A DNA stretch of 64,000 nucleotides from SAR202 cluster bacterium (GTDB lineage Bacteria > Chloroflexota > Dehalococcoidia > Lucifugimonadales > UBA1123), in NCBI GenBank assembly GCA_030752795.1, contig JASMDM010000033.1:1441-65440 (forward strand), given 5' to 3'. Every line of letters begins with the position of its first letter. Position 1 is the stretch's first letter. Below, piece after piece: positions 10,058-62,813 of the stretch. A program made the translations under genes and the position numbers. The notes beneath the pieces were generated by a model that saw nothing but the letters and a program-made list of their open reading frames with translations, was not told the DNA's origin and made no database searches.

Positions 10058-10924
10058 TCAGTCTTTCACGTATTTGTCGATCAACAACCCAAGCCGCTCT
10101 CGCGCGGCGTCGGGAATCGCGTCCGGGTTCGTGATGATCGCGCTCTCGAGCGCAGATCGGCACGAACACCCAGCGAGATTCGGCATCTCGGCGATCATCC
10201 GTCGAATGATTCGTTGTCCTGTGCTAACATTGGCCAATAGGTTCTGAACGATGAGCTCGACGGACACCTCGTCTTCGGACTCGCGCCACACGTCGTAGTC
10301 CGTGACGAACGCCAGGGTGACGTAGCAAATCTCTGCTTCTCGGGCTAGCTTGGCCTCCGGTAGGGCCGTCATGCCGATTACGCTCGCGCCCCAGTTCCGG
10401 TAAAGCGTGGATTCGGCCCGCGTCGAAAACTGCGGACCTTCCATTACAACGTAAATGCCTCCGGCGTGCGTGTCGGTGCCTTCCGCGATTCCGCTTTTGA
10501 CCGCCAGTGGACGCAGGGTTGGGCAGAACGGGTCCGCGAATCCAACGTGGGCCGCGACCCCGTCGCCGAAGAACGTCGACGGACGGGCTCTGGTTCGGTC
10601 GATGATTTGATCGGGCACGACCACGTCGAGCGGCTTGAGGTGCTCCTTCAGGCTGCCGACCGCGCTGATCGACACGATGCTTTGCACCCCCAAGGATTTC
10701 AACGCGTAGATGTTGGCTCTGACCGGAATTTCTGTCGGCAGGAGCTTGTGCCCCCTGCCGTGTCGAGGCAGGAATGCGACATCGATGCCGTCCAGCGTAC
10801 CCGTGATGATCGCGTCGCTCGGATCGCCAAAAGGCGTCTCCACGTACACTTCGCTTCGGTCTTCGATCCGATCCATGTCGTACAGGCCGGACCCTCCGAT
10901 GAAGCCGACCCTGAAATCAGCCAA
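10058..10924 (-). CDS. mtnP: S-methyl-5'-thioadenosine phosphorylase
   Basis: 288 aa with VGFIGGSGLYDM and FLPRHGRGH, typical of MTAP/PNP family 2. Confidence 0.9.
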   Translation of the reverse strand: MADFRVGFIGGSGLYDMDRIEDRSEVYVETPFGDPSDAIITGTLDGIDVAFLPRHGRGHKLLPTEIPVRANIYALKSLGVQSIVSISAVGSLKEHLKPLDVVVPDQIIDRTRARPSTFFGDGVAAHVGFADPFCPTLRPLAVKSGIAEGTDTHAGGIYVVMEGPQFSTRAESTLYRNWGASVIGMTALPEAKLAREAEICYVTLAFVTDYDVWRESEDEVSVELIVQNLLANVSTGQRIIRRMIAEMPNLAGCSCRSALESAIITNPDAIPDAARERLGLLIDKYVKD

Positions 10925-11993
10925 CGTTGGCCTCCCCGAGCGCCGACAATGACTTGAGGTAGGGGGGCCTCGCGACCGACTGCTCGGTGATGATCGCTGT
11001 GATATATCTGCCCGGTGTCACGTCGAAAGCGACGTTCATCGCATCGACGCCGGGCGGCGCGGTTCGTCTGGTCGCGAACTCCAGCACCTCGTCTTGCGAT
11101 CGTTCCTCGATTGTGATCTCCTCGCCGGAGGACAGCGTAAGGTCGAGAGTGCCTGTCGGCGCCGCCACGTAGAATGGCACCCCGGTCTCTTTTGCCAGCA
11201 CCGCCAGCGAATACGTGCCGACTTTGTTGGCGACGTCGCCGTTGGCCGCGATCCGGTCCGCGCCCACGACGATCGCCTGGACGAACCCGCGCCTGAGAAG
11301 CTGACCGGCCGATGAATCGGTAATCAGCGTGGTGTCGACCCCCGATTTCGAGAGCTCCCAGGCGGTCAACCGAGCGCCTTGAAGCAACGGCCTCGTCTCG
11401 GTCGCGAACACCTTCGTGATGCGTTGGTCGTTCCAAGCCGTCCTGATGACGCCGAGAGCCGTGCCGTAGCCGCCCGTCGCCAACGCGCCGGCATTGCAAT
11501 GAGTCAGCACCTGGCTACCCCAGGGGATGAGCCGGGCCCCGTGCTTGCCGATGCGGTGATTGAAGGCCAAGTCTTCCTCGTGGATAGCCACGGACTCCGA
11601 GGTCAGGTCGGCAACGATCTCTTCGGTGGATTGCGCCGTTGACTGAGCTCCCAAACAACGCGCCAGCAGCCTGTCGACAGCCCACGCCAGATTCGCGCCG
11701 GTTGGCCTCGCGCCTTTGATCTCGCGAGCAGCTTCACACAACCGTTCGGAGAAGTCACCGTTGGCCGTCCCCGACAGCTCCATCGCCGCCAGTGCGAGTG
11801 CGTAGGCCCCGGCGATGCCGATGGCGGGCGCTCCCCGCACGAGCATCTCTTGAATTGCCCGGATGACCTCCCGGTAATCGGATGTCTCGAACCAAACCTC
11901 CTCCAACGGGAGTCGTGTCTGGTCGATCAGGCTGAGGCGGTCGCCTTGCCAGATTAACGGGCTGAATCCAGAGAAGCCAGCGGACTTCACCAT
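10917..11993 (-). CDS. mtnA: S-methyl-5-thioribose-1-phosphate isomerase
   Basis: eIF-2B alpha/beta/delta-like fold with WQGDRLSLIDQTRLP, CNAGALATGGYGTALGVIR and VGADRIAANGDVANKVGTY. I moved the start to ATG 11993 (SD GGAGGG = rc of 11995-12000). The upstream 53 codons of the track ORF cover the riboswitch expression platform. Confidence 0.9.
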   Translation of the reverse strand: MVKSAGFSGFSPLIWQGDRLSLIDQTRLPLEEVWFETSDYREVIRAIQEMLVRGAPAIGIAGAYALALAAMELSGTANGDFSERLCEAAREIKGARPTGANLAWAVDRLLARCLGAQSTAQSTEEIVADLTSESVAIHEEDLAFNHRIGKHGARLIPWGSQVLTHCNAGALATGGYGTALGVIRTAWNDQRITKVFATETRPLLQGARLTAWELSKSGVDTTLITDSSAGQLLRRGFVQAIVVGADRIAANGDVANKVGTYSLAVLAKETGVPFYVAAPTGTLDLTLSSGEEITIEERSQDEVLEFATRRTAPPGVDAMNVAFDVTPGRYITAIITEQSVARPPYLKSLSALGEANVG

Positions 11994-12108
11994 ACCCTCC
12001 TGCGACGAACTGAGCTGCGTGCGAACGGGTGGGGATGGGGCCGGTAGGTTCTCAATACAAAAAGAACTTCCCAATGCAGAGCAGAGAAGTCCTAAATTAA
12101 GGACACTG

Positions 12109-12230
12109 CTCTCATCTCTCAAGCGTGTAACGCTCGTCGGATTTGGCACCATATCTCGTGCGCGGATGGGCGCTCAAGCGGGTTGCCGGGCTTCAAGGGG
12201 CCGATCCCTCCGCCACTCTTGATAAGAGCT
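12109..12230 (-). promoter_or_regulatory. SAM-I (S-box) riboswitch aptamer
   Basis: Reverse-strand RNA is AGCUCUUAUCAAGAGUGGCGGAGGGAUCGGCCCCUUGAAGCCCGGCAACCCGCUUGAGCGCCCAUCCGCGCACGAGAUAUGGUGCCAAAUCCGACGAGCGUUACACGCUUGAGAGAUGAGAG. It has P1 CUCUUAUC/GAUGAGAG, the GGAGGGA..GGCCC..UGAA.CCCGGCAACC core, GGUGCCAAAUCC and AGAUGAG. It lies about 115 nt upstream of the mtnA start. Confidence 0.9.
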
Positions 12231-48896: not shown

Positions 48897-48973
48897 TGGT
48901 GGGCGATAGAGGACTCGAACCTCTGACCTTCTGTGTGTAAGACAGACGCTCTAACCAGCTGAGCTAATCGCCC
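48897..48973 (-). tRNA. tRNA-Val (anticodon TAC), CCA encoded
   Basis: GGGCGATTAGCTCAGCTGGTTAGAGCGTCTGTCTTACACACAGAAGGTCAGAGGTTCGAGTCCTCTATCGCCCACCA, which folds as a canonical cloverleaf. Confidence 0.95.
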
Positions 48974-49062
48974 GGGCCCGAGCACGACCCTGAATTGGGT
49001 TGCCGACGGACGTGCGCCGCATCGGGCGGCTATCGGTTTGGGAAAATGAGGAAAGGTCAAAG

Positions 49063-49136
49063 CGCGCTTGGCGGGACTCGAACCCACGGCCTCAGCCTCC
49101 GCAGGGCTGCGCTCTATCCAACTGAGCTACAAGCGC
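49063..49136 (-). tRNA. tRNA-Arg (anticodon GCG), CCA not encoded
   Basis: GCGCTTGTAGCTCAGTTGGATAGAGCGCAGCCCTGCGGAGGCTGAGGCCGTGGGTTCGAGTCCCGCCAAGCGCG with anticodon loop CTGCGGA. Confidence 0.9.
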
Positions 49137-49493
49137 CCAAAACATGACGTTTCCGTTGCCAAGTTAGGAGAATCGACGCTGGGAGTAAACTCGATGCCTT
49201 GGCTTGCTCCCGAATGCCGTACGCCATTCTATCACGTATCTCTTTTGGGATGTAGGATTCGGCCTGCTCGGGTCGCGCTTGCGCTCTAGGAAACCACACC
49301 GCTGTTCCGTGTGTAACTAGGTGGATGTTTGAGTCAATGGCGCGCGCTAACCGATGGGTGCAAGCTTTCACAAACACCCGATATCTCCCGACACTGTTTT
49401 GCGTGGCGGCGTGATTTCGAGCACAACCGTTCGGCATTAATCTTGGAACCAGGGCAGCAAATTAACACTCCGAGGCATCAGCAGGAGACAACA

Positions 49494-50560
49494 ATGAAGC
49501 TTCCGAAAGGCGGATTTCGGCTGGTCGGACAAGAGCGAGGGGTCACCGGCTTGGAAACCGCGGTCATCTTGATTGCGTTCGTGGTAGTCGCTTCCGTATT
49601 CGCGTTCACCGTATTGTCAACGGGCATCTTCTCCGCCGAACGCGGTAAAGAGACAATCCACGCTGGGTTGACCGGAGCGCGCAGTTCCATGGAGCTCAAA
49701 GGCTCCATTGTATCCAACGGCACCGCCGATCAAACGCTTTCGGACGGCGATTCTGTTTGGACAGCCAACCTATTCGGCGCGACTTCCACTCCGACCGTGA
49801 CGGCTGAAACCACGGATAAAAAAGAAGAGACCGGCAGTGCGGACATCGTCATGGATGCCGCATTCACCACTCAATTGGCTGCATACATAAACCTCTCCGC
49901 CACGATCAACTTGAGCGCCATCGACTCGATCAAACTATGGGCCAAGTGGAGCACCCTCACCGCGTCGGGTGACATCGAGATCGTCGTGGATGACACCACC
50001 GGATGCGGTAGTCCACTGGAAAACATCGACATTCCGGTGCTGATCGCGGACGCATGGACCAACGTGACGCTTGCGATATCGGACAACAGCGACATGACGG
50101 CCATCAAGTGCGTGGGGTTTTATCTCGCCGTCGACAGCGGAGCTCAGACCGTAAACTTGGACAGCATTGTCGGCCAAGGTCAGGCTACTTCGCTTCTGAT
50201 AACTTTGGCCAACGCGCTCGAAGGGGAACCGATCGACGTCAGCGAACCCGGCGACTCAGACGCCAACGGCCTGTGGACTCCGACAGCAACCACACACTCG
50301 TCCTCACCTACACGGACAAGAACCGGGTGGTCAGGGATGTCTACTGGACGAACACGTTCGTCGGTCAAAACGACGGTGACGATCTCTTGGAGTCCGGCGA
50401 AAAAGTCGAGCTGAATGTCCGACTGACCGGACTTTCGAACACATACCCAGTCATAGGGGACACGAGGTTCGACGTCGAAATCAGAGCCGAGTCCGGCGGC
50501 TCGATCGTCGTCGAGCGCACGATGCCGGACCTGATCGACTCGGTCATGAACCTGAACTAA
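49494..50560 (+). pseudogene. archaellin-family (archaeal flagellin / class III signal peptide) gene, split by one frameshift near 50268-50272
   Basis: ATG 49494 (SD AGGAG 49483-49487) gives [16 protein letters not shown]|[28 protein letters not shown]...[10 protein letters not shown]. The C-terminal block in the other frame (50270-50560) is [21 protein letters not shown]...[24 protein letters not shown]...RFDVEIRAESGGSIVVERTMPDLI. Both ends match archaellin conserved regions. Confidence 0.75.
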
Positions 50561-50584: not shown

Positions 50585-50622
50585 AGCCCTGCGCCCTGGA
50601 ACAAGGGCGCAGGGCTTTTTTT
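50585..50622 (+). terminator. rho-independent terminator after the archaellin-like gene
   Basis: Perfect 13-bp stem AGCCCTGCGCCCT-GGAACA-AGGGCGCAGGGCT followed by TTTTTTT. Confidence 0.9.
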
Positions 50623-50724
50623 GCGACTAACGAGGGGTCGTTTCCCGAAGGCGGCGCCAAGGGTCCTCGTAGCCGGTGCTCAATTCGCTTCAGAACGAGT
50701 CGGCCAAACCGAACGTCGCGCTTC

Positions 50725-54075: not shown

Positions 54076-56157
54076 TTGAACCCTCCCGCGGGCAACCCTG
54101 AGGGGCGGGCGCAGCGATGGGCTTCGAAGCTGCTTGCGCTGACGATCTGGTTGCTTGTCTATCTCATCGTCAGCGGTCTGGTCATCTACCTGGCCCCGCT
54201 GCCGTCAGACTTCATGGAGTCGCAGGGCTGGGCGTGGAAAGCCGTCCAGTGGCTGGTTCTGTTCCATACCTTCCTCGGACTTATCGCCGGCGCGATTATC
54301 GGCCGTTACCTGTGGAAGCATTACTTCACGGTACGACCGCAGCGATTCGACTTCGGCAGGCTTCTCGGACACATCAGCTTGTGGCTCTTCGTCATCTGTG
54401 CCGTGAGCGGTCTAGTCGTTACATGGCAGGCGTGGTTCGGAGACAAGATCAGCTACTGGGTTGACACCGTTCACACTTGGAGCGGCTTCGTTCTGGTCCC
54501 GTTGCTGGGTTGGCATTTGGTTCGGGTTTGGCTTCGGGTCAGGAGTAGAGCCGCGCTGGATTTGCTGCCTGTTGTGCGAGGCCCGCAGTTGCGACTGGTC
54601 TGGGGGAGTTCGGCGGTTGCCGCTCTGCTGATGGTCGTCGGGGTCGGTTTCGCGATTGTTACCGGCGGGCCCGACATCTCGGCCGGCATCCCGCCTCAGA
54701 CCTACAGCCTCAAGTACGGCGAAGACCCGTTCATGCCGAGCAACGTGGACACGAGCACGGGCGGAGCGCTCAACGCTGACGTGCTGGCGGGCTCGGAGAA
54801 CTGCGGCACATGCCACAAGGACATCTACGACGAATGGGAGGCCAGCGCCCACCGTTGGTCGGCCAGCGATATGTTCTACACCACCGTGGCCAGCGCGATG
54901 CAAGAAGACACCGGCATCGAGTCGACCAGGTATTGCGGCGGCTGTCACAACCCGATCCCGATTCTTTCGGGCAACCTGACGACCGTGGTCGCCGAAGCAC
55001 TCGCTGAAGAAGGGAAATCAGGCCAAGAGGCTCTCCATTACGAGGAAGGAATATCCTGCACCGTTTGCCACGGCATCACTGCCATACTCGGCGCCAAAGG
55101 GAACGGCAACTACCAGGTCACCCCTCCGCCCAGATACCTGTTCGAGTTGGACGACCAGGACGGCTTTCTCGGTAAACTCAGTCAGTTCCTGATCCGCGCT
55201 TACCCGCAAACTCACCGAGAATCGCTCTCGCGGGGGCACTACAAGCTGCCCGAGTTCTGCGGCACGTGCCACAAGCAGTACCTCGATGAAGAGGTCAACA
55301 ACTTCGGCTGGGTCAGGCTGCAGAACCAGTACGACAATTGGAAAGAGAGCAAGTGGAATAAAGGCCCGGACGATCCCGAGACGATCGTGTGCATCGAGTG
55401 CCACATGCCCCTGACTCCGAACGAACAGGAAGTGAGCTCGGGCGTGAGCGACGGCGACCCGTATGGTCCTCATCCCGGTCAACATCGCAGCCATCGCTGG
55501 TTGGCTGCCAACCAGGCTATCCCATGGCTGCTTGAAGACCACGAGCAGGTCGAGCTCACCGAGCAATGGCTGAAGGGCGAGATCGAGATACCCGAGATTC
55601 AGGACAAATGGGAAACGGGGCCCGTGATTGGCACGAACGTTGTGGCGCCGGAGACGGTCGAACCCAGAGAGACGCTCGAATACATCGTGGTCATCGACAA
55701 TAACAAAACCGGCCACGAGTTTCCGACCGGACCGTTGGACTTGATCCAGACCTGGATCGAGGCGAAGGTTCTCGACGCTTCGGGCAACACTCTGTCGCAC
55801 ACGGGCTGGATCGACGAGAACAACTACGTCGACCCGAACGCCCACTACTTCAGGTCGTTCCCCATTGACGAAGAGGGCAACGTCATCTACCGTCACAATC
55901 TCTGGGACATGGTTGGCACGACGTACCTCAGGGTGATCTTCCCGGGCTTCTCGGAGAAGGTAACTTATACGATGGAGGTGCCCGAAGACGCCGATGGACC
56001 TCTCACGATTGAGGCGAGGCTGAGGATGCGCAAGTTCCATCAAAAGATCGTGGACTCCGCCACCGACAACAGCGGCCTAACCTTCCCGATCACCGATCTT
56101 TCGTCCTCGAGCATTGAGGTCGATGTGGTGAATCAGGTGGCCGGGAACATCGAATAG
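54076..56157 (+). CDS. fusion of an N-terminal five-helix, His-containing membrane domain with a periplasmic pentaheme c-type cytochrome
   Basis: 693 aa. TTG start with SD GGAG 54065-54068. Hydrophobic helices contain His residues (LFHTFLG, GHISLW, VHTWSG, GWHLV). There are five CxxCH motifs: CGTCH, CGGCH, CTVCH, CGTCH and CIECH. The C-terminal ~230 aa are heme-free. Confidence 0.85.
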   Translation: MNPPAGNPEGRAQRWASKLLALTIWLLVYLIVSGLVIYLAPLPSDFMESQGWAWKAVQWLVLFHTFLGLIAGAIIGRYLWKHYFTVRPQRFDFGRLLGHISLWLFVICAVSGLVVTWQAWFGDKISYWVDTVHTWSGFVLVPLLGWHLVRVWLRVRSRAALDLLPVVRGPQLRLVWGSSAVAALLMVVGVGFAIVTGGPDISAGIPPQTYSLKYGEDPFMPSNVDTSTGGALNADVLAGSENCGTCHKDIYDEWEASAHRWSASDMFYTTVASAMQEDTGIESTRYCGGCHNPIPILSGNLTTVVAEALAEEGKSGQEALHYEEGISCTVCHGITAILGAKGNGNYQVTPPPRYLFELDDQDGFLGKLSQFLIRAYPQTHRESLSRGHYKLPEFCGTCHKQYLDEEVNNFGWVRLQNQYDNWKESKWNKGPDDPETIVCIECHMPLTPNEQEVSSGVSDGDPYGPHPGQHRSHRWLAANQAIPWLLEDHEQVELTEQWLKGEIEIPEIQDKWETGPVIGTNVVAPETVEPRETLEYIVVIDNNKTGHEFPTGPLDLIQTWIEAKVLDASGNTLSHTGWIDENNYVDPNAHYFRSFPIDEEGNVIYRHNLWDMVGTTYLRVIFPGFSEKVTYTMEVPEDADGPLTIEARLRMRKFHQKIVDSATDNSGLTFPITDLSSSSIEVDVVNQVAGNIE

Positions 56158-56262
56158 GTGCAGGTCGATCTGAGCCAGCCGAACGAGACGGCGCCTACGA
56201 CAGCCTTGGTTAGATGGGCAGCCGTCGACAACTCCACTCGACGTTGCCGCGCGCGATCAACT

Positions 56263-57531
56263 ATGCGTCCACTCATCGTTGTTGCACTCCTTGTCCTCGC
56301 GACGATCATGGCCGGATGCAGCGGGTCATCTTCTTCGGACTCAGGAGACAAGCCAACCTCCGAATCGGTCGTCGACAAAGTTGGTCTGATTCAGCGCGAG
56401 GACGGCGCGTGGCGCATGTCGGGTCACGACAGCCTCCATTCCAACCGCATAAACGCCCCGTCGATCGAAACTCCCGAGATCAAATGGGAGAAGAAACTTA
56501 GCCATCGTATCCTTGCGGGCGCGGCTATCGGAGAAGATGGAACTGTCTACGTATCAGCGGAAGGCGAGCGATTTGAGTCTGCCGGGCACGGCCTGTTCGC
56601 CTTCACGTCTGGAGGCGAACAGGTCTGGAGCCTAGCACTGCCCGCGCCAATTCGGACGACATCCCTGCTGCAAGGTGACTCGATTCTGTTCGGTTCGTAC
56701 GACGGTGCGTTCCAATCCGTGTCCTTGGCCGGCCAGCGACTTTGGCGGTACGACCCCGAGGACCTGTCGCACCGCATTTCCCTGTCTTCGCCGGCGACGG
56801 CACGCGATGGCACGATTTACTTCGGCGACCACGGCGGGTCGCTTCAAGCCGTCTCCTTCGACGGTGCTCGGGTCTGGAGCTATGCCACCAACGACTACGT
56901 CAGGGCCGCGCCCTCGATCGCACGTGACGGTACGGTGTACGTCGGTTCCAACGACGGCACGTTCTACGCGCTGAACCCGGACGGCACACTGAAATGGTCG
57001 TTCGAGACGGGAGGACGGATAGACTCACCGGCCGCGATCGCATTGGACGACACGGTGTATTTCGGATCGGCGGACGGAAAGCTGTACGCGCTGACCCCAG
57101 AAGGCGTCGAAAAATGGGCCGTACCAGTTGGCAAAGGATTGATGGTATTCACATCGCCTGCTCTGGGGCACGATGGAACGATATACGTCGGCACGACCGG
57201 CACAGCGCCGTTGGGGTCGAGCCAACCTCAGCAAACTGCCGCCTTCCCTTTCATGGCCATCAGCCCGGATGGGGCGGTCAAATGGGAGTTCCCGCTCACC
57301 CAATGGATCCGATCGTCCCCCGCGGTGGTTTCCGACGGTACGGTTTATTTCGGCGGATGGGACGGGACGCTCTACGCGCTCACACCCCAAGGTGAGTTAA
57401 AGTGGGAACTCAGCCTGGGAGATATTCCGGTCGAGCAGGCGATCGAGGCGCCGCCGGCGGTCGCGCACGACGGCACGATTTTCATAGGAACGTGGGATGG
57501 GAGATTCTTTGCCATTGGCGAAAGCGAGTAG
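56263..57531 (+). CDS. PQQ-like (BamB-like) beta-propeller repeat lipoprotein
   Basis: Lipobox IMAGC-SG. There are repeated DGT(V/I)Y(V/F)GS.DG.(L/F)YAL.P.G..KW blades. The alternative GTG 56158 abuts the cytochrome stop. Confidence 0.8.
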   Translation: MRPLIVVALLVLATIMAGCSGSSSSDSGDKPTSESVVDKVGLIQREDGAWRMSGHDSLHSNRINAPSIETPEIKWEKKLSHRILAGAAIGEDGTVYVSAEGERFESAGHGLFAFTSGGEQVWSLALPAPIRTTSLLQGDSILFGSYDGAFQSVSLAGQRLWRYDPEDLSHRISLSSPATARDGTIYFGDHGGSLQAVSFDGARVWSYATNDYVRAAPSIARDGTVYVGSNDGTFYALNPDGTLKWSFETGGRIDSPAAIALDDTVYFGSADGKLYALTPEGVEKWAVPVGKGLMVFTSPALGHDGTIYVGTTGTAPLGSSQPQQTAAFPFMAISPDGAVKWEFPLTQWIRSSPAVVSDGTVYFGGWDGTLYALTPQGELKWELSLGDIPVEQAIEAPPAVAHDGTIFIGTWDGRFFAIGESE

Positions 57532-59266
57532 CCGCCCCCTCTCGGGCTTGGTCGTTGCTCAGGCGCTCGCCGTACTGTTCCTAGCCGCCACTTGGACGTT
57601 CACGGCTTGCCGGTCCGGCGTCGAGGAAGCGACAGGCTTCATCCCGGACGAGGAGCGTGTTGTTCGGAGCGAAGACGAGGGCGTGGAATTCGTCGATGTC
57701 ACGGCCGAATCAGGCATCGCCTTCAGTCACTTCAACGATGTTAGGACGTCCGTCCTCATCGAAGACATGGGGTCCGGCGCCGCGTGGGGCGACTACGACG
57801 GCGACGGGTTCGTCGATCTCTTCATCGTGAACAGCTCGCGCGACGAACTCGGTGAGAACCCAGCGAACACGGGCAAGCTGTTCCGCAATCACGGCGACGG
57901 CACGTTTGAGGACGTGACCGCACGATCGCAAATCAAACAAGCCGGGCTCGGCATGGGCGCGGTCTGGTTCGACCACGACGGCGATGGCGACATCGACCTG
58001 TTCGCGACGGGCTTCGGTAGGCAGCAACTCTTCCGCAACGGCGGCCACGGCGTCTTCGAGGACGTGACGACGCAGAGCGGACTCCGGATCGAGTCCGGTT
58101 GGCCGTCCGGGTCGACGGTCGCGGACTACGACTTGGACGGCGACCTTGACCTCTACGTGCCCCACTATGTCGCTTTCGAGATCGGCGATTCTGAGGTCGA
58201 GACATTGCTCAACAAACAGTACGGCCTCGATATTCCGTTCACCCTGAATCCGTTCTCGTACGAACCGCTGGCCAACAAGCTCTACCGCAACAACGGCGAC
58301 GGGACGTTCGATGACGTGAGTTCGGTCGCGGGAGTTGCGAATGCCGAGGGTCGTAGCCTGCAGGCCGTTTTCTGTGACCTCGATGCTGATGGGTTGCCGG
58401 ACCTTTACGTCGCCAACGACATCTCTCCGGACGCGCTTTTCATCAACCGGGGCGACGGCACATTCGAGAACATGGCCGAGTACGCGAGGACCGCGGACGC
58501 TCGCGGCTCGATGGGTGTGGCCGTCGGAGACTACGATGGTGATCTCGACCAAGACATCTGGGTGACTCACTGGATTGCGCAAGACGACGCTCTGTTTCGG
58601 AACATGTCCCAGCTATCAAACGGCGACGAAATCAGGTTCGTCGACCGGATCGCCGCCGACGTGGGCGAGAGATCGCTCAGCTACGTGGGTTGGGGAGTAG
58701 GCTTCATCGACTTCGACAACGATGGGCGCTTGGACGTGATTGTGGTTAACGGCAGCACGTTCGAGCCGCCGGAGGCGCCGACGACCCTCGACACGATGCG
58801 AAACCTCCTCTTCCGCAATCGAGGCGAGGAAGGCTTCGTCCTGGTGAACGACATTGCCGGCGATGTGTGGGCGACGAAAGACGTCGGGAGAGGCGCTTCT
58901 TTCGCCGACTACGACAACGACGGCGATTTGGACATCCTCATTCTGGCCCGAGGCGATGGCGTGAAGCTGCTCCGGAACCAAGGCGGCAACGCCCGCAACT
59001 GGCTGACCCTCGATTTGAACGGCTTTTCTGGCAACAGACAGGCCATAGGCGCAACTGTAACCATAGGCGCGGGCGCCACGAGCCAGAGGCAGACGGTCGT
59101 GGCCGGTTCCAGCTACCTTTCGATGAACGATGTACGAGTCCACTTCGGGCTTGGCGACCACGACATCGTCGATTCAGTCGAGGTCCGTTGGCCTGACGGT
59201 CATTTGCAGATGTTGAGTGCCGTCAGCGTCAATCAGGTGCTGACCATCTCCAAGGATCGACCGTGA
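57497..59266 (+). CDS. CRTAC1-family lipoprotein (FG-GAP/VCBS repeats plus an ASPIC/UnbV domain)
   Basis: Lipobox TFTAC-R. There are repeated GDYDGDG..DL.V.N and FRN.GDGTFEDVT units. The C-terminal part is NWLTLDL.G...NR.AIGA.V......Q...V.AGSSYLS.ND...HFGLG. It overlaps the previous gene by 35 nt. Confidence 0.85.
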   Translation: MGDSLPLAKASSRPLSGLVVAQALAVLFLAATWTFTACRSGVEEATGFIPDEERVVRSEDEGVEFVDVTAESGIAFSHFNDVRTSVLIEDMGSGAAWGDYDGDGFVDLFIVNSSRDELGENPANTGKLFRNHGDGTFEDVTARSQIKQAGLGMGAVWFDHDGDGDIDLFATGFGRQQLFRNGGHGVFEDVTTQSGLRIESGWPSGSTVADYDLDGDLDLYVPHYVAFEIGDSEVETLLNKQYGLDIPFTLNPFSYEPLANKLYRNNGDGTFDDVSSVAGVANAEGRSLQAVFCDLDADGLPDLYVANDISPDALFINRGDGTFENMAEYARTADARGSMGVAVGDYDGDLDQDIWVTHWIAQDDALFRNMSQLSNGDEIRFVDRIAADVGERSLSYVGWGVGFIDFDNDGRLDVIVVNGSTFEPPEAPTTLDTMRNLLFRNRGEEGFVLVNDIAGDVWATKDVGRGASFADYDNDGDLDILILARGDGVKLLRNQGGNARNWLTLDLNGFSGNRQAIGATVTIGAGATSQRQTVVAGSSYLSMNDVRVHFGLGDHDIVDSVEVRWPDGHLQMLSAVSVNQVLTISKDRP

Positions 59267-59279
59267 AGGGACCGCTTCG

Positions 59280-62200
59280 ATGACCGAAGTGTCACGCCGT
59301 GAGCTGTTGCTGGCTGCCATCGTTGCGGCCGCCGCCGTCGCGGTCGGCGGCTATTTCATCTTTGTCGGCAGCGGAGAATCGAATGGGGTAGCCCAGGCTC
59401 GCATTCACAATGCTCGGGGCATCGAGCTACTTGAATCAGGCCGACCCACCGAAGCGGCCGATCAGTTCCGGCAGGCGACAGGACTCGACCCGGATTATTA
59501 TCACGGTCAACTCAATCTGGGCATAGCGTTCTTTCACAGCGGATCGGATGAGAGAGCGCGTGAAGCCCTGCTGGCAGCCGTGAAGCTCGTCCCCGACGGC
59601 GTTCAATCGAGCTATCTCTTGGGCCGGCTGGATCTGCTTGAAGACCAAGAGGCGGACGCGATCGAAAGATTCAACGAGGCCCTGCTGTCGGACCCCAACG
59701 ATCCTTTCACCAACTATTTCCTCGGCAAGCTTTACTTCGATGCCGGCCGGATGTCGGAGGCCCGCGAACGGCTCGAAAAGGCGATCCTGGTCGACGGAGC
59801 GATGGCCGCAGCGCACTACACGCTGGGGCTCATCCTGCTCCAGGAAGGCGACGAGACGGGCGGGCTGAACGAGATGCTCGCGTACAACCAATTCGTCATT
59901 CGTAGACAGGCCGATGACCTGGGCACGCGACCCTATCTCGACGAAGGTAGGTACGCCCGGGCGGTCGAAGACCCTGACGGCCCCGACGATGCGATCGTCT
60001 CGCCCGAAGCCACGGCCGTTCGGTTCACGGACGTGACTCAAGGCTTGGGAATACGCTTCGCGCACGGCGGATCGACCGACCCGGACATATGGCGGAGCCA
60101 GCCGGTGACGCTGTACCGGGAACTCCTGCGCGAGCAGGTGACGTCCTTTTTCGGCTCAGGTGCCGCGTTCCTGGACTACGACGGCGACGGCAATCTCGAC
60201 CTCTACATCGCGAACGCCGGACCGACTGACACGGAGTCCGCAAACGTCCTGTTCCGCAACGCCGGAGACGGCACATTCGAAGACGTGACGGACCAGGGAG
60301 GCGTCGGTCACACGGGGCAGGGGATGGGCGTGACATTCGGCGATTTCGACAACGACGACGACCCCGACCTGTATGTCACGAACGCAGGTCCGAACGTGCT
60401 CTTCCGCAACGAAGGCGACGGGACCTTCACGGACGTGACGGCTCAAGCGAGGGTCGGCGACACCGGATTCGGTCTAGGCACCACGTTCGTCGATATCGAT
60501 CACGACGGCCATCTCGATCTTTTCGTGGCCAACTACGTCGATCTCGATGCGATAGCCGATGGAGAAGCGATTCAATTCCCGCACGACGTGCCGGGCCAGC
60601 ACAACGTTCTCTACCTCAACAACCAAGACGGCACATTCTCGGACGTGACGGTGGACGCCAACTTGGACGGCGCCGCTCCGAGCGTCGGCGCAGTGTTCTT
60701 CGATTACGACGGCGACAACGATGTCGATTTTTATCTGGGCAACGACGGCCAGCCGGGAATCTTGTACAGCAACAATCGGGACGGCAGTTTCTCCGACGTC
60801 ACCGGTGAATCCGGATTGGCCGGCGTTGTGGCCTCGCGAGGCGTCGCGGCCGGCGATTACAACGGCGACAGTTTCATTGACCTGCTGGTCAACTCCGGTT
60901 TGACGAACGGCACATCGCTCATCGTCAATCAGGGCGACGGCACGTTCGCAACCGACCAGTCGTTTCGCGCGCTGGCCGATCGGCGCGACGACGTTCCGGC
61001 GTGGGGAGCGTCCTTTATCGACTACAACAACGACGGCGCACTCGATGTATCGCTGTTATACGGCGAGTCCAACGGCGCGATCGTCTTGTTCCCGAATCGA
61101 GGAGATGGAACGTTCTCGGACGTTGAGACCGAAACGGGTTTGCATGAAGTGGCGATCGATCGCGGACGGGGCATGGCGCTAGGCGACTACGACAACGACG
61201 GAGACACAGACATCTTCGTGGTGAACAACGGCGCCCGACCGGTGTTGATACAAAACGACGGCGGCAACCAGAACGCCTGGCTCAAGTTGACGACCGTGGG
61301 CGACGGCAGCAACCGCATGGGCCTCGGAAGCAAAATCGAGATCAAAGCAGGACAGCTCTGGCAGAAGAGGGAGGTTCGCGGCGGATCCGGATACCTATCG
61401 CAGAACAGCTCCGAGCTCTTATTCGGATTGGGCGACGAACAGCAGATCGGAATGGTTCACGTCCTGTGGCCCAGCGGACTCCGTCAGCGCCCGAGCGAAT
61501 TTTCGGTCAATCGCGATCTGACCGTCATCGAGCAGGGCAGAAAGTCGTCCTGTCCGCTCCTGTATACGTGGGACGGGGAACGCTACACGTTCATCACCGA
61601 CTTCCTGGGCGCCGGCTTCATCGGCATTCTGGTCGGACCGGACACCTATTACCAGCCCGACTCCGACGAGTACGTCAGGATCGACGGCAGCCTATTGCTG
61701 GAGAAGGGCGGGCAGTACTCGATCAAGATCACCGAGCAGCTCGAAGAAGTCAGCTATCTCGATGAAGTCCGATTGCTGGTGGTGGACCATCCGTCGGGCA
61801 CGGAGATCTACCCTAACGAGGTGCTGAAGATGGGACCGCCGTTCCCCGAGTTCAAGGTTCACGTCACGGCAGATGCCAGGCCGCCGATTTTCGCAACAGA
61901 CGGTGACGGGCGCGACATCCTCGCTGCGGTCAGCGATCTCGATCGGAACTATCCGACATTTCCGCTGCTTCCGTACCAAGGAATCAGCGCGACGCACTCT
62001 ATCGTCCTCGACCTCGGTGATCTGTCCGGATCCGATCGAGTTCTGCTGCTCATGGATGGTTGGATCGAGTACTGGAACTCGCAGAGCGTCCGGCAAGCCC
62101 TGGACGACGGGGTGCCGTTGCAGGCGCCGAAGCTCGAGGTCTGGAGCGACGAAACTGGATGGGTGAACGTCATCGAAGATTTTGGCTTCCCCTCGGGTCT

Positions 62201-62813
62201 TCCGAAAACGATGACCGTCGATCTGACCGGCGTGTTCCTGTCCGATGACTATCGAGTCCGAATTACGACCAACATGGAGATCTATTGGGACCGAATCAGG
62301 GTCAGCGCCGGCGCCGGCGATGCTCCGGTCAAGATCACGACCTTGGCCCCAAGTCGTGCGGCGCTCGATTGGCGAGGATACCCCAAGCTGTCGCTGCCCG
62401 ACGGCAAGAACCCTCCGGTATTCCTGCACGACCAGCCCGTCGACACCGCGCCGTTCGCCGACCACGCCGGGTACTACACCCGGTACGGCGAAGTCACCTC
62501 GCTGCTGCACGAGCTCGACGACCAATTCGTTATCGTGCACCACGGCGAGGAGATCGACTTGACCTTCCCGGCGGATAGTGTCGCCGCGTTGCCAGAAGGG
62601 TGGACCCGGGACTTCCTGTTGTACGTCGACGGCTACGTCAAGGACGGGTGGCGCGACACCGCACACGGCAACACCGTGGCGCCGCTCCCGTTCCACGGCA
62701 TGTCAAGCTACCCATACCCGGACGGCGAGGCCTACCCGGACGACCGGGAGCATCGCGAATACCTGCGGGACTACAACACGCGTTGGATCGGCAGCGCTCC
62801 CGATCGCCCCTAA
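59280..62813 (+). CDS. large CRTAC1-family protein: signal anchor, TPR repeats, FG-GAP/VCBS repeats, an ASPIC/UnbV domain and a ~420-aa uncharacterised C-terminal domain
   Basis: 1177 aa. TPR-like helices span aa ~40-200. There are multiple GD(Y/F)D.DG..D....N repeats. The ASPIC/UnbV block is NAWLKL...G.GSNR.GLGSKIE......Q.REV.GGSGYLSQNS.ELLFGLG. It is followed by SCPLLYTWDGERYTFITDF.... Confidence 0.85.
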   Translation: MTEVSRRELLLAAIVAAAAVAVGGYFIFVGSGESNGVAQARIHNARGIELLESGRPTEAADQFRQATGLDPDYYHGQLNLGIAFFHSGSDERAREALLAAVKLVPDGVQSSYLLGRLDLLEDQEADAIERFNEALLSDPNDPFTNYFLGKLYFDAGRMSEARERLEKAILVDGAMAAAHYTLGLILLQEGDETGGLNEMLAYNQFVIRRQADDLGTRPYLDEGRYARAVEDPDGPDDAIVSPEATAVRFTDVTQGLGIRFAHGGSTDPDIWRSQPVTLYRELLREQVTSFFGSGAAFLDYDGDGNLDLYIANAGPTDTESANVLFRNAGDGTFEDVTDQGGVGHTGQGMGVTFGDFDNDDDPDLYVTNAGPNVLFRNEGDGTFTDVTAQARVGDTGFGLGTTFVDIDHDGHLDLFVANYVDLDAIADGEAIQFPHDVPGQHNVLYLNNQDGTFSDVTVDANLDGAAPSVGAVFFDYDGDNDVDFYLGNDGQPGILYSNNRDGSFSDVTGESGLAGVVASRGVAAGDYNGDSFIDLLVNSGLTNGTSLIVNQGDGTFATDQSFRALADRRDDVPAWGASFIDYNNDGALDVSLLYGESNGAIVLFPNRGDGTFSDVETETGLHEVAIDRGRGMALGDYDNDGDTDIFVVNNGARPVLIQNDGGNQNAWLKLTTVGDGSNRMGLGSKIEIKAGQLWQKREVRGGSGYLSQNSSELLFGLGDEQQIGMVHVLWPSGLRQRPSEFSVNRDLTVIEQGRKSSCPLLYTWDGERYTFITDFLGAGFIGILVGPDTYYQPDSDEYVRIDGSLLLEKGGQYSIKITEQLEEVSYLDEVRLLVVDHPSGTEIYPNEVLKMGPPFPEFKVHVTADARPPIFATDGDGRDILAAVSDLDRNYPTFPLLPYQGISATHSIVLDLGDLSGSDRVLLLMDGWIEYWNSQSVRQALDDGVPLQAPKLEVWSDETGWVNVIEDFGFPSGLPKTMTVDLTGVFLSDDYRVRITTNMEIYWDRIRVSAGAGDAPVKITTLAPSRAALDWRGYPKLSLPDGKNPPVFLHDQPVDTAPFADHAGYYTRYGEVTSLLHELDDQFVIVHHGEEIDLTFPADSVAALPEGWTRDFLLYVDGYVKDGWRDTAHGNTVAPLPFHGMSSYPYPDGEAYPDDREHREYLRDYNTRWIGSAPDRP

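What the first reader, a model, noticed from the sequence alone, without database searches (positions are those of the whole stretch)
49494..50560. Orphan archaellin-family gene in a bacterial chromosome, split by a single frameshift
The N-terminus, [16 protein letters not shown] / [28 protein letters not shown], is a class III signal peptide: a short basic leader ending in Gly followed by an uncharged hydrophobic helix. It takes the specific form found in archaellins (..RG|x[15 protein letters not shown]). The last ~95 aa, read in the other frame, reproduce the conserved archaellin C-terminal block (...ltY.D......v.Wt...vG..d.D.LLE.GEK.E..V.L......rF.VEI.....G..i.veR..P..i). The ~200 aa between them are Thr/Ser/Asp-rich and variable, as expected for the surface-exposed domain. 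Everything around the gene is bacterial (SD sequences, CIRCE, S-box, bacterial tRNAs). No archaellum motor or assembly genes (ArlH/I/J, ArlF/G, prepilin peptidase) occur in this window. The gene has its own SD and a very strong terminator, and it lies next to a tRNA-Val/tRNA-Arg pair. The two halves join if one C is added at GGCC|TGTGG (50268-50272), giving ...[15 protein letters not shown].... To my recollection, archaellum-like clusters have been noted in a few Chloroflexota, but I cannot verify that here. An isolated and possibly inactivated copy would be either a relic of such a system or a filament subunit used by a different machinery.
Basis: partly seen in the sequence, partly recalled or inferred. 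Interest (0 to 1): 0.8.

Follow-up and report, generated by a model that had tools for sequence, protein, structure and literature searches.

The report
Frameshifted spare archaellin gene in SAR202
This is a real archaeal-type flagellin (archaellin) gene in a marine SAR202 Chloroflexota bacterium, recently broken by a one-base deletion; such bacteria are already known to carry archaellum genes with many scattered archaellin copies, so it is a decaying member of a known system, not a new one.

Summary
An ATG at 49494 opens a 306-codon frame. The -1 frame then continues to a stop at 50558-50560. The joined 355-aa protein passes Pfam PF01917 (51.9 bits, cut-off 29.5). Its best solved relative is the Litorilinea aerophila bacterial archaellin (9i5h).

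The lesion is a single C lost from the Ser261 codon (TCG to T-G, between 50274 and 50275). It is not an assembly error: 11 independent assemblies checked carry it, and the 306-aa product is indexed in 94 collection blocks.

The organism is a SAR202 Chloroflexota bacterium. Published work (Lim 2023; Sivabalasarma 2025) already describes archaellum operons in this group, with about six further scattered arlB copies. Intact members of this same 350-aa subfamily head complete arlB-(CDE)-G-F-H-I-J operons in relatives.

A sister species has the syntenic ortholog killed independently by a nonsense codon, and its second copy is cut by an IS21 element. dN/dS between the two orthologs is 0.04, so both lesions are recent.

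Verdict: a recent pseudogene of a dispersed arlB paralogue. I could not establish whether this genome still has the motor. Side observation: residues 80-227 form an inserted CBM-like domain that also occurs in phage virion proteins.

The parts
48897..49136 (-). tRNA-Val(tac) at 48897-48973 and tRNA-Arg(gcg) at 49062-49136. These are conserved landmarks of the locus, lying between moxR and the archaellin gene.
   Evidence: ARAGORN and Rfam. The same pair is in the same position in the sister species locus L099.
49483..49487 (+). Shine-Dalgarno AGGAG, 6 nt upstream of the ATG.
   Evidence: Read directly from the sequence.
49494..49541 (+). Class III signal peptide leader, residues 1-16 ([16 protein letters not shown]). 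Predicted cleavage is after Gly16.
   Evidence: TIGR02537 at 30 bits. Val17 aligns with residue 1 of the mature L. aerophila ArlB chain 9i5h_C. That structure starts at the predicted cleavage site, Ile29 (PMC12488501).
49542..49640 (+). N-terminal hydrophobic helix of the mature archaellin (residues 17-49). This part forms the filament core.
   Evidence: Nearly invariant across 91 homologues. Helix 20-49 in the AF2 model of the intact homologue P0003. About 80% identical to 9i5h over residues 17-79.
49731..50174 (+). Inserted domain of about 148 aa (residues 80-227). It is absent from the L. aerophila archaellin and is predicted as a CBM-like beta-jelly-roll with conserved Cys171 and Cys206.
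   Evidence: The PDB alignment skips residues 80-227. pLDDT is above 90 in this region. Foldseek hits CBM11, CBM30, CBM4, CBM22, CBM29 and CBM8 with TM-scores up to 0.64 normalised to the target. The domain alone finds 803 representative clusters, including phage virion proteins.
49494..50274 (+). 5' part of the archaellin gene in frame A: codons 1-260 plus the first base of codon 261.
   Evidence: PF01917 profile positions 1-66 are hit by this part.
50274..50275 (+). Site of the 1-nt deletion: the C of the Ser261 codon is lost (TCG to T-G).
   Evidence: Codon alignment with 10 intact homologues. Invariant G259 is in frame A; invariant D262 and D264 are in frame B. The lesion is identical in L001-L010 and L019.
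50276..50560 (+). 3' part of the archaellin gene in frame B: codons 262-355 plus the stop. It encodes the C-terminal beta-strands of the archaellin globular core.
   Evidence: PF01917 profile 91-161. Aligns to 9i5h chain residues 66-182. dN/dS against intact homologues is 0.03-0.06 in this frame.
50412..50414 (+). Premature stop reached in frame A after a 46-residue out-of-frame tail ([10 protein letters not shown]...AKKSS).
   Evidence: This 306-aa product is what gene callers report in public assemblies (P0121).
50585..50623 (+). Intrinsic terminator: 13-bp stem with 10 GC pairs, 6-nt loop, T7 tail. It is placed for the full-length gene.

Best explanation
The gene is a dispersed arlB (archaellin) paralogue of the horizontally acquired archaellum system of SAR202/Dehalococcoidia Chloroflexota.

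The intact form is a pre-archaellin of about 355 aa. A PibD/ArlK-type prepilin peptidase removes its 16-residue class III leader. Its hydrophobic N-terminal helix packs into the filament core. Its globular domain, here enlarged by an inserted CBM-like domain of about 148 aa, faces outward. ArlH/I/J-driven assembly and rotation would give an archaellum.

In this lineage one C was lost from codon 261. Translation now runs out of frame for 46 codons and stops. The last four or so beta-strands of the archaellin core are lost, so the copy is most likely a recent pseudogene.

What is shown: family membership, the nature and position of the lesion, its fixation in a clonal and widely sampled population, and independent inactivation of the ortholog in a sister species. 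What is inferred: loss of function of the 306-aa product, and the assembly mechanism, which rests on homology to the L. aerophila and archaeal systems.
For: Family membership:
- PF01917 at 51.9 bits against a cut-off of 29.5; TIGR02537.
- Best PDB sequence hit is 9i5h, E 1.4e-28, aligned in two blocks that flank the insert.
- The AF2 model of the intact 82%-identical homologue P0003 has the L. aerophila bacterial archaellum as its top Foldseek hit.

Host:
- Homologues are named SAR202 cluster, Dehalococcoidia or Chloroflexi.
- Neighbouring genes are bacterial: dnaE, moxR and a SAM riboswitch.

Link to the motor:
- Intact subfamily members sit directly upstream of ArlCDE-like, ArlG, ArlF, ArlH, ArlI and ArlJ genes in L107.
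- The same arrangement occurs in L096, where the archaellin is cut by an IS.

The lesion is real:
- It is identical in 10 loci from NCBI, ENA and JGI assemblies and in a Tara contig.
- The 306-aa product is indexed in 94 collection blocks.
- No intact allele above 82% identity appears among the best 120 listed hits of a search of 5.8 billion proteins.
- The site is not a homopolymer.

The lesion is recent:
- Frame B has no further defects.
- dN/dS is 0.03-0.06 downstream of the shift and 0.04 against the syntenic ortholog.

Decay is recurrent:
- The sister species has CAA to TAA at codon 80, and an IS21 element truncates its second tandem copy.
- Other family members have out-of-frame tails or truncations (P0113, P0102, P0109).

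Literature: SAR202 isolates have six clustered and six scattered flaB copies, and no filaments were seen (PMC10444878).
Against: I could not examine the rest of this genome. It is therefore unknown whether intact paralogues, arlFGHIJ and pibD are present.

Loss of function of the 306-aa product is inferred from the missing core strands. It has not been tested.

The population is so clonal (0-1 SNP in the gene) that selection after the frameshift cannot be measured.

The promoter scan found no sigma-70-like site upstream, so expression status is unknown.
Confidence: 0.78

Rival explanations
1. Relic of a lost system. This SAR202 species, and perhaps its sister, has lost the archaellum motor, and the archaellin locus is a decaying leftover rather than a spare copy in an archaellated cell. 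This rival concerns only the state of the rest of the genome and is compatible with the best explanation, which leaves that state open.
For: Two sister species each carry independent knock-outs at the same locus, and in the sister both tandem copies are broken. No arl gene is in the 64-kb window. Among the top 120 ArlI relatives in each of two searches, none had the very wide distribution of this population's archaellin, and none was named SAR202. Cultured SAR202 showed no filaments or motility (PMC10444878).
Against: dN/dS of 0.04 between the two orthologs shows strong constraint until very recently. Each ArlI list shows only 120 of more than 6000 hits and also misses the known SAR202 isolate ArlI, so absence cannot be read from it. 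With up to 12 arlB copies per genome, losing one or two is expected even when the motor is retained.
Confidence: 0.3
2. Recoding. The full-length archaellin is still made by programmed -1 ribosomal frameshifting or by transcriptional slippage.
For: Frame B is perfectly preserved, and the terminator is placed for the full-length gene. One population variant (CTG to CCG at codon 260; P0123, P0128) is synonymous in frame B and non-synonymous in frame A.
Against: There is no X XXY YYZ heptamer in the overlap of the two frames, and no homopolymer at the site. The 90 nt downstream fold no better than shuffled sequence (z = 0.04). Homologues have a plain in-frame Ser codon there. The sister ortholog is broken by a different kind of lesion at a different place.
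Confidence: 0.03
3. Sequencing or assembly artefact, with the real gene intact.
For: Single-base indels are a common assembly error.
Against: The same deletion is in 11 independently assembled contigs from different projects and assemblers, and the product is indexed in 94 collection blocks. The site is not a homopolymer. No intact allele appears among the listed hits of the protein search.
Confidence: 0.02
4. The truncated 306-aa protein (leader, helix, inserted domain and a new 46-aa Ser/Thr/Arg-rich tail) is itself functional, for example as a membrane-anchored or filament-tip display of the CBM-like domain.
For: The signal peptide, the helix and the whole inserted domain are upstream of the shift and intact. 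The allele is fixed in a widely sampled population.
Against: The shift removes the conserved core strands that complete the archaellin globular domain, into which the insert is embedded. The sister ortholog stops at codon 80, before the insert, so no common truncated product is selected. Fixation in a clonal population is equally expected by drift or hitch-hiking.
Confidence: 0.07
5. It is a bacterial Flp/Tad or type IV pilin rather than an archaellin.
For: [quoted passage not shown]
Against: At E up to 1, the only Pfam hit is PF01917, and it spans both ends of the profile. The C-terminal domain aligns to a solved archaellin. Subfamily members sit in arlG-F-H-I-J operons.
Confidence: 0.01

Closest known systems
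Scattered flaB/arlB copies of SAR202 'Candidatus Lucifugimonas marina' (Lim et al. 2023, PMC10444878)
   Same: Same bacterial clade (SAR202, Dehalococcoidia) and same gene family. The arrangement also matches: archaellin genes dispersed in the chromosome, away from the flaB x6-flaGFHIJ cluster.
   Different: This copy comes from a different SAR202 lineage; the isolate's proteins were not among the 120 closest hits. It is frameshifted. Pseudogenised copies and the inserted domain are not mentioned in the text or held supplements that I searched.
ArlB of Litorilinea aerophila, the solved bacterial archaellum (PDB 9i5h; Sivabalasarma et al. 2025, PMC12488501)
   Same: Same cleavage-site register and the same N-terminal helix, at about 80% identity over residues 17-79. 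The C-terminal globular core is homologous (E 1.4e-28 by sequence). It is the top Foldseek hit for the intact homologue.
   Different: The L. aerophila subunit is 183 aa when mature and has no insert. The SAR202 subfamily carries an extra domain of about 148 aa between the first core strand and the rest. The window copy is broken.
Euryarchaeal (Methanotecta-type, arl2) archaellins, Pfam PF01917
   Same: Same family profile, class III signal peptide and operon logic (arlB-CDE-G-F-H-I-J) in relatives.
   Different: The host is a bacterium. The gene has host-like GC content and a bacterial SD and terminator.
CBM-type beta-jelly-roll modules (CBM11, CBM30, CBM4, CBM22, CBM29) and the insert found in phage virion proteins of phrog_3287
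   Same: The predicted fold of residues 80-227 matches these CBMs (Foldseek E of 1e-4 to 1e-5; TM-score up to 0.64 normalised to the target). The same sequence module is inserted in phage virion structural proteins and repeated in a PilN-like protein.
   Different: No Pfam model hits it, sequence identity to CBMs is only 10-15%, and no sugar binding has been shown. This resemblance is a lead, not a membership.

Membership tests
Archaellin (ArlB/FlaB, Pfam PF01917) | Profile match above the curated threshold that covers both the N-terminal helix and the C-terminal core. | tested here: met
   51.9 bits against a cut-off of 29.5, covering profile 1-161 of 162. The halves hit profile 1-66 and 91-161 separately.
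Archaellin (ArlB/FlaB, Pfam PF01917) | Class III signal peptide: a short basic leader ending in Gly, followed by a hydrophobic helix. | tested here: met
   TIGR02537 at 30 bits against a cut-off of 20. Val17 aligns with residue 1 of the mature 9i5h chain.
Archaellin (ArlB/FlaB, Pfam PF01917) | Globular domain homologous, by sequence and fold, to a solved archaellin. | tested here: met
   9i5h, second aligned block, residues 228-354 to chain 66-182. Foldseek top hit is 9i5h_C at E 1.6e-7, obtained for the intact homologue P0003 and not for the window protein itself.
Archaellin (ArlB/FlaB, Pfam PF01917) | Intact reading frame. | tested here: not met
   A 1-nt deletion in codon 261 leads to a stop at 50412-50414. 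It is therefore a pseudogene member of the family.
Archaellum system (arlB with arlF/G/H/I/J and a PibD/ArlK peptidase) | Motor and assembly genes in the same locus. | tested here: not met
   tblastn with ArlG/F/H/I/J and the ArlCDE-like protein against the 64-kb window hit only the archaellin gene.
Archaellum system (arlB with arlF/G/H/I/J and a PibD/ArlK peptidase) | Subfamily members associated with a complete arl operon somewhere. | tested here: met
   L107 has arlB(360 aa)-351 aa-ArlG-ArlF-ArlH-ArlI-ArlJ. L096 has the same order. Contig lengths also pair P0117 with P0270 and P0114 with P0322.
Archaellum system (arlB with arlF/G/H/I/J and a PibD/ArlK peptidase) | Motor genes, peptidase and intact paralogues elsewhere in this same genome. 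| not testable with these tools
   The window's own genome was not retrievable. The genome-contig scan returned only two other species. The ArlI look-ups landed in other samples.
Bacterial Flp/Tad or type IV pilins | Match to Flp_Fap, N_methyl or pilin profiles. | tested here: not met
   No Pfam family other than PF01917 hit at E up to 1.
Programmed -1 frameshift genes | Slippery X XXY YYZ heptamer or a slippage-prone run at the shift site, with a downstream stimulatory structure. | tested here: not met
   No heptamer or run at the site. The downstream fold has z = 0.04.

The most novel reading that the evidence does not exclude
The most novel reading that remains open has three linked parts. 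(1) The parallel, recent knock-outs of the same archaellin locus in two cosmopolitan, clonal SAR202 species are not neutral loss of a spare copy. (2) They reflect selection against displaying this filament subunit. (3) The reason would be its surface domain, a CBM-like module also found inserted in phage virion proteins, which could be a glycan- or particle-binding adhesin or a target for phage. Under this reading, marine SAR202 'archaella' would be at least partly adhesive or receptor-bearing filaments undergoing lineage-specific loss.
Probability: 0.12. Interest if true: 0.55.

Novelty: new member of a known kind. Interest (0 to 1): 0.3.

Why it matters
An archaeal motility gene in a bacterium would have been striking a few years ago. 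It is now documented for SAR202 and other Chloroflexota, including a solved, working filament. This locus therefore adds detail rather than a new principle.

The details are of modest use. First, dispersed arlB copies in abundant ocean SAR202 populations are being inactivated repeatedly and recently, by a frameshift here, by a nonsense codon and IS21 in the sister species, and by IS elements or frameshifts elsewhere. This bears on the open question of whether marine SAR202, in which no filaments have been seen, actually use their archaella.

Second, the large SAR202 archaellin subfamily (more than 2000 homologues) carries a folded CBM-like insert that is shared with phage virion proteins. I found no paper that describes this. 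It could point to an adhesive or glycan-binding role for the filament surface.

Tried and rejected
Adding a C to GGCC restores the frame, but it gives Pro-Val where homologues have Leu/Val/Ile followed by Ser/Ala. Codon alignment supports a lost C in Ser261 instead.
- Selection test within the population. The contigs are too clonal to use: 0-1 SNP in the gene and about 0.13-0.25% divergence over 20 kb.
- Finding the same genome's motor. The genome-contig scan returned only UBA2160 and an Arabian Sea SAR202 MAG, not the window's genome. The two ArlI homologue searches list only 120 of more than 6000 hits. The cluster listing and five look-ups (P0226, P0389, P0273, P0301, P0267) landed in other samples. 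A search for MAG accessions in the supplements of PMC12488501 found nothing.
I used the intact homologue P0003 (82% identical) instead.
- Genomic island next to the tRNAs. GC content is not anomalous, and the locus is syntenic in a sister species, so recent insertion is not supported.
- Recoding. No slippery site, no homopolymer run and no stable downstream structure.
- Flp/Tad or type IV pilin assignment. No such Pfam hits.

Full report

Yes. An ATG at 49494, preceded by AGGAG at 49483-49487, opens a frame that runs to a stop at 50412-50414 (306 aa). The -1 frame is open from 50054 to 50558-50560.

Joined, the two frames give 355 aa. This protein scores 51.9 bits on Pfam PF01917 Arch_flagellin (E 1.4e-13; gathering cut-off 29.5) and covers profile positions 1-161 of 162. 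The two halves hit profile 1-66 and 91-161 separately. NCBIfam TIGR02537, the archaellin/type IV pilin N-terminal domain, gives 30 bits against a cut-off of 20. No Flp/Tad or type IV pilin family appears at E up to 1.

The flanking features are also as described:
- tRNA-Val and tRNA-Arg lie upstream on the minus strand.
- A strong hairpin followed by a T7 tract sits at 50585-50616.
- The S-box riboswitch is at 12109-12228.
- No other arl gene occurs in the window.

**2. Where exactly is the lesion, and is it real?**

Sixteen- and 92-sequence alignments show invariant G259 encoded in frame A, and invariant D262 and D264 encoded in frame B. Ten intact homologues read GGC CTG TCG/TCC GAC at the DNA level. 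The window reads GGC CTG T-G GAC.

The lesion is therefore the loss of one C from the Ser261 codon, between 50274 and 50275.

The deletion is not an assembly artefact, for four reasons:
- The 306-aa frame-A product is a recurrent gene call. It forms a cluster of 11 near-identical sequences, and the exact window product is indexed in 94 collection blocks from NCBI, ENA, JGI, Logan and Tara.
- Ten fetched loci and a Tara contig carry the identical deletion. They show 0-1 SNP in the gene and 26-50 mismatches per 19.9 kb of shared flank.
- The site is not a homopolymer.
- The closest intact protein among the best 120 listed hits, in a search of 5.8 billion proteins, is only 82% identical.

**3. 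What organism and what system?**

The surroundings are bacterial: dnaE, DUF2007, MGMT, transglutaminase, DUF58, moxR and the two tRNAs, together with a SAM riboswitch elsewhere in the window. Named homologues are from SAR202 cluster, Dehalococcoidia or Chloroflexi MAGs. GC content of the gene (55-59%) matches its flanks.

The literature already covers the phenomenon. Lim et al. 2023 (PMC10444878) report that cultured SAR202 genomes have six tandem flaB genes followed by flaGFHIJ, six more flaB copies scattered through the genome, and a FlaK candidate. They saw no filaments. Sivabalasarma et al. [quoted passage not shown]

The window protein's best solved relative is that structure, 9i5h (E 1.4e-28). 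Residues 17-79 align to chain residues 1-63. This puts signal-peptide cleavage after Gly16 (RG|VTGLE). Residues 228-354 align to chain residues 66-182.

**4. Is the gene an 'orphan'?**

In this window, yes. For the subfamily, that is the norm:
- UBA2160 has a tandem pair between moeA and a dipeptidase gene.
- An Arabian Sea SAR202 MAG has four tandem copies followed by an acyl-CoA ligase gene.
- Another MAG has a singleton.
- Most marine metagenome loci with usable flanks also lack motor genes.

The subfamily is nevertheless tied to the motor. In L107 an intact 360-aa member (66% identical to the window protein) is followed by an ArlCDE-like gene, then ArlG, ArlF, ArlH, ArlI and ArlJ. L096 has the same order, with its archaellin cut at the 3' end by an IS.

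I could not determine whether the window's own genome has the motor. The genome scan did not return that genome. The ArlI searches list only the top 120 hits. All five look-ups led to other samples.

**5. Evidence on the history of the locus**

A sister species (L098-L100) has exactly the same synteny, including the two tRNAs, at about 75% nucleotide identity over 7.5 kb. Three findings follow:
- Its ortholog (355 codons, 87% amino-acid identity) carries an in-frame CAA to TAA change at codon 80.
- A second tandem copy is truncated after codon 287 by an IS21-family element.
- Three independent assemblies of this species are essentially identical.

Between the two orthologs dN is 0.071 and dS is 1.77, giving omega of 0.04. 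Downstream of the window's frameshift, dN/dS in frame B against intact homologues is 0.03-0.06. Both genes were therefore under strong purifying selection for nearly all of their separate history, and were knocked out recently and independently.

Other family members also show out-of-frame tails or truncations (P0113, P0102, P0109/P0111). Decay of individual arlB copies is thus recurrent in SAR202.

**6. Alternatives**

Recoding is unsupported. There is no X XXY YYZ heptamer and no homopolymer at the site, and the downstream RNA folds no better than shuffled sequence (z = 0.04).

A functional truncated product is unlikely. The shift removes the conserved C-terminal strands of the core (E269-275, 285-290, 304-310 and 326-332 in the model). 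The sister ortholog stops even earlier, before the insert.

**7. The middle of the protein**

Residues 80-227 are not a low-complexity spacer. They are conserved (DKK motif, W149, C171, C206) and are predicted with pLDDT above 90 in the intact homologue P0003. After the archaellin itself, the Foldseek hits are carbohydrate-binding modules: CBM11 1v0a at TM 0.63, then CBM30, CBM4, CBM22, CBM29 and CBM8.

Searched alone against 1.84 billion representative proteins, this domain finds 803 clusters at E up to 1e-3. The proteins range from about 100 to 2800 aa and carry one to three copies. They include:
- a PilN-like protein with three copies;
- a protein with a Laminin_G_3 domain;
- a protein with an SU10-adaptor domain;
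- several phage virion structural proteins of phrog_3287, in which the module is likewise an insertion.

Some archaellins (P0001, 502 aa) carry it in duplicate. No Pfam model covers it, and no paper in the library combines 'archaellin' with 'carbohydrate-binding module'. This is a side observation. Glycan binding is a hypothesis only.

**8. Verdict**

The finding is accurate as an observation, but it describes a member of an already published phenomenon. It is a dispersed arlB paralogue of the SAR202 archaellum system, recently pseudogenised by a fixed 1-nt deletion. The parallel inactivation in a sister species and the CBM-like insert are modestly new details. Whether the lineage keeps a working archaellum is the question that remains, and it is easily answered with the full genome.

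Noticed in passing
window 49731-50174 (residues 80-227 of the archaellin): Inserted domain of about 148 aa with a predicted CBM-like beta-jelly-roll fold and no Pfam model. Searched alone, it finds 803 representative protein clusters. These include phage virion structural proteins (phrog_3287, where it is also an insertion), a PilN-like protein with three copies, and large Laminin_G_3 surface proteins.
   Followed up: partly
L099 6449-9807 (also L098, L100): Sister SAR202 species with the same dnaE...moxR-tRNAVal-tRNAArg synteny. The orthologous archaellin has a CAA to TAA nonsense change at codon 80. A second tandem copy (P0066) is truncated by an IS21 (IstB) element. Three independent assemblies differ by 1 base in 8.8 kb.
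   Followed up: yes
L096 4461-6558: In a relative, the archaellin directly upstream of the ArlCDE-like/G/F/H/I/J genes is cut at its 3' end by an rve-family IS transposase gene on the opposite strand.
   Followed up: partly
L101-L104 (MAGs GCA_022572805.1 and others): A widely sampled Chloroflexi population has arlB(363 aa)-438 aa ArlCDE-like-ArlH-ArlI. What follows is a 200-aa protein that has no Pfam hit and no match to ArlJ, in place of ArlJ. tblastn found no ArlF, ArlG or ArlJ on these contigs, so the cluster may be reduced or rearranged.
   Followed up: partly
proteins P0001, P0002 and P0055 (about 500 aa): Archaellin variants in which the inserted domain is partly duplicated in tandem (a repeated TADT.DKK.GTASAD...WVK block).
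   Followed up: no
window 50271-50273 (codon 260); variants P0123 and P0128: Some population members read CCG instead of CTG one codon before the deletion. This is Leu to Pro in frame A but synonymous (CCT to CCC) in frame B. It is a single observation and too little to interpret.
   Followed up: no
window 39496-62813 compared with L001-L010: The population is extremely clonal: 26-50 mismatches per 19.9 kb between contigs from unrelated NCBI, ENA, JGI and Tara assemblies.
   Followed up: partly
window 54076-62813: Downstream gene set: a 693-aa multihaem-cytochrome-like protein, a PQQ beta-propeller protein, and two FG-GAP/ASPIC (UnbV) proteins, one with TPR repeats (Pfam labels). This may be an extracellular redox or adhesion module. 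I did not examine it.
   Followed up: no
window 12109-12228 (minus strand): SAM-I riboswitch (86.7 bits) upstream of a 411-aa ORF at 10917-12152.
   Followed up: no
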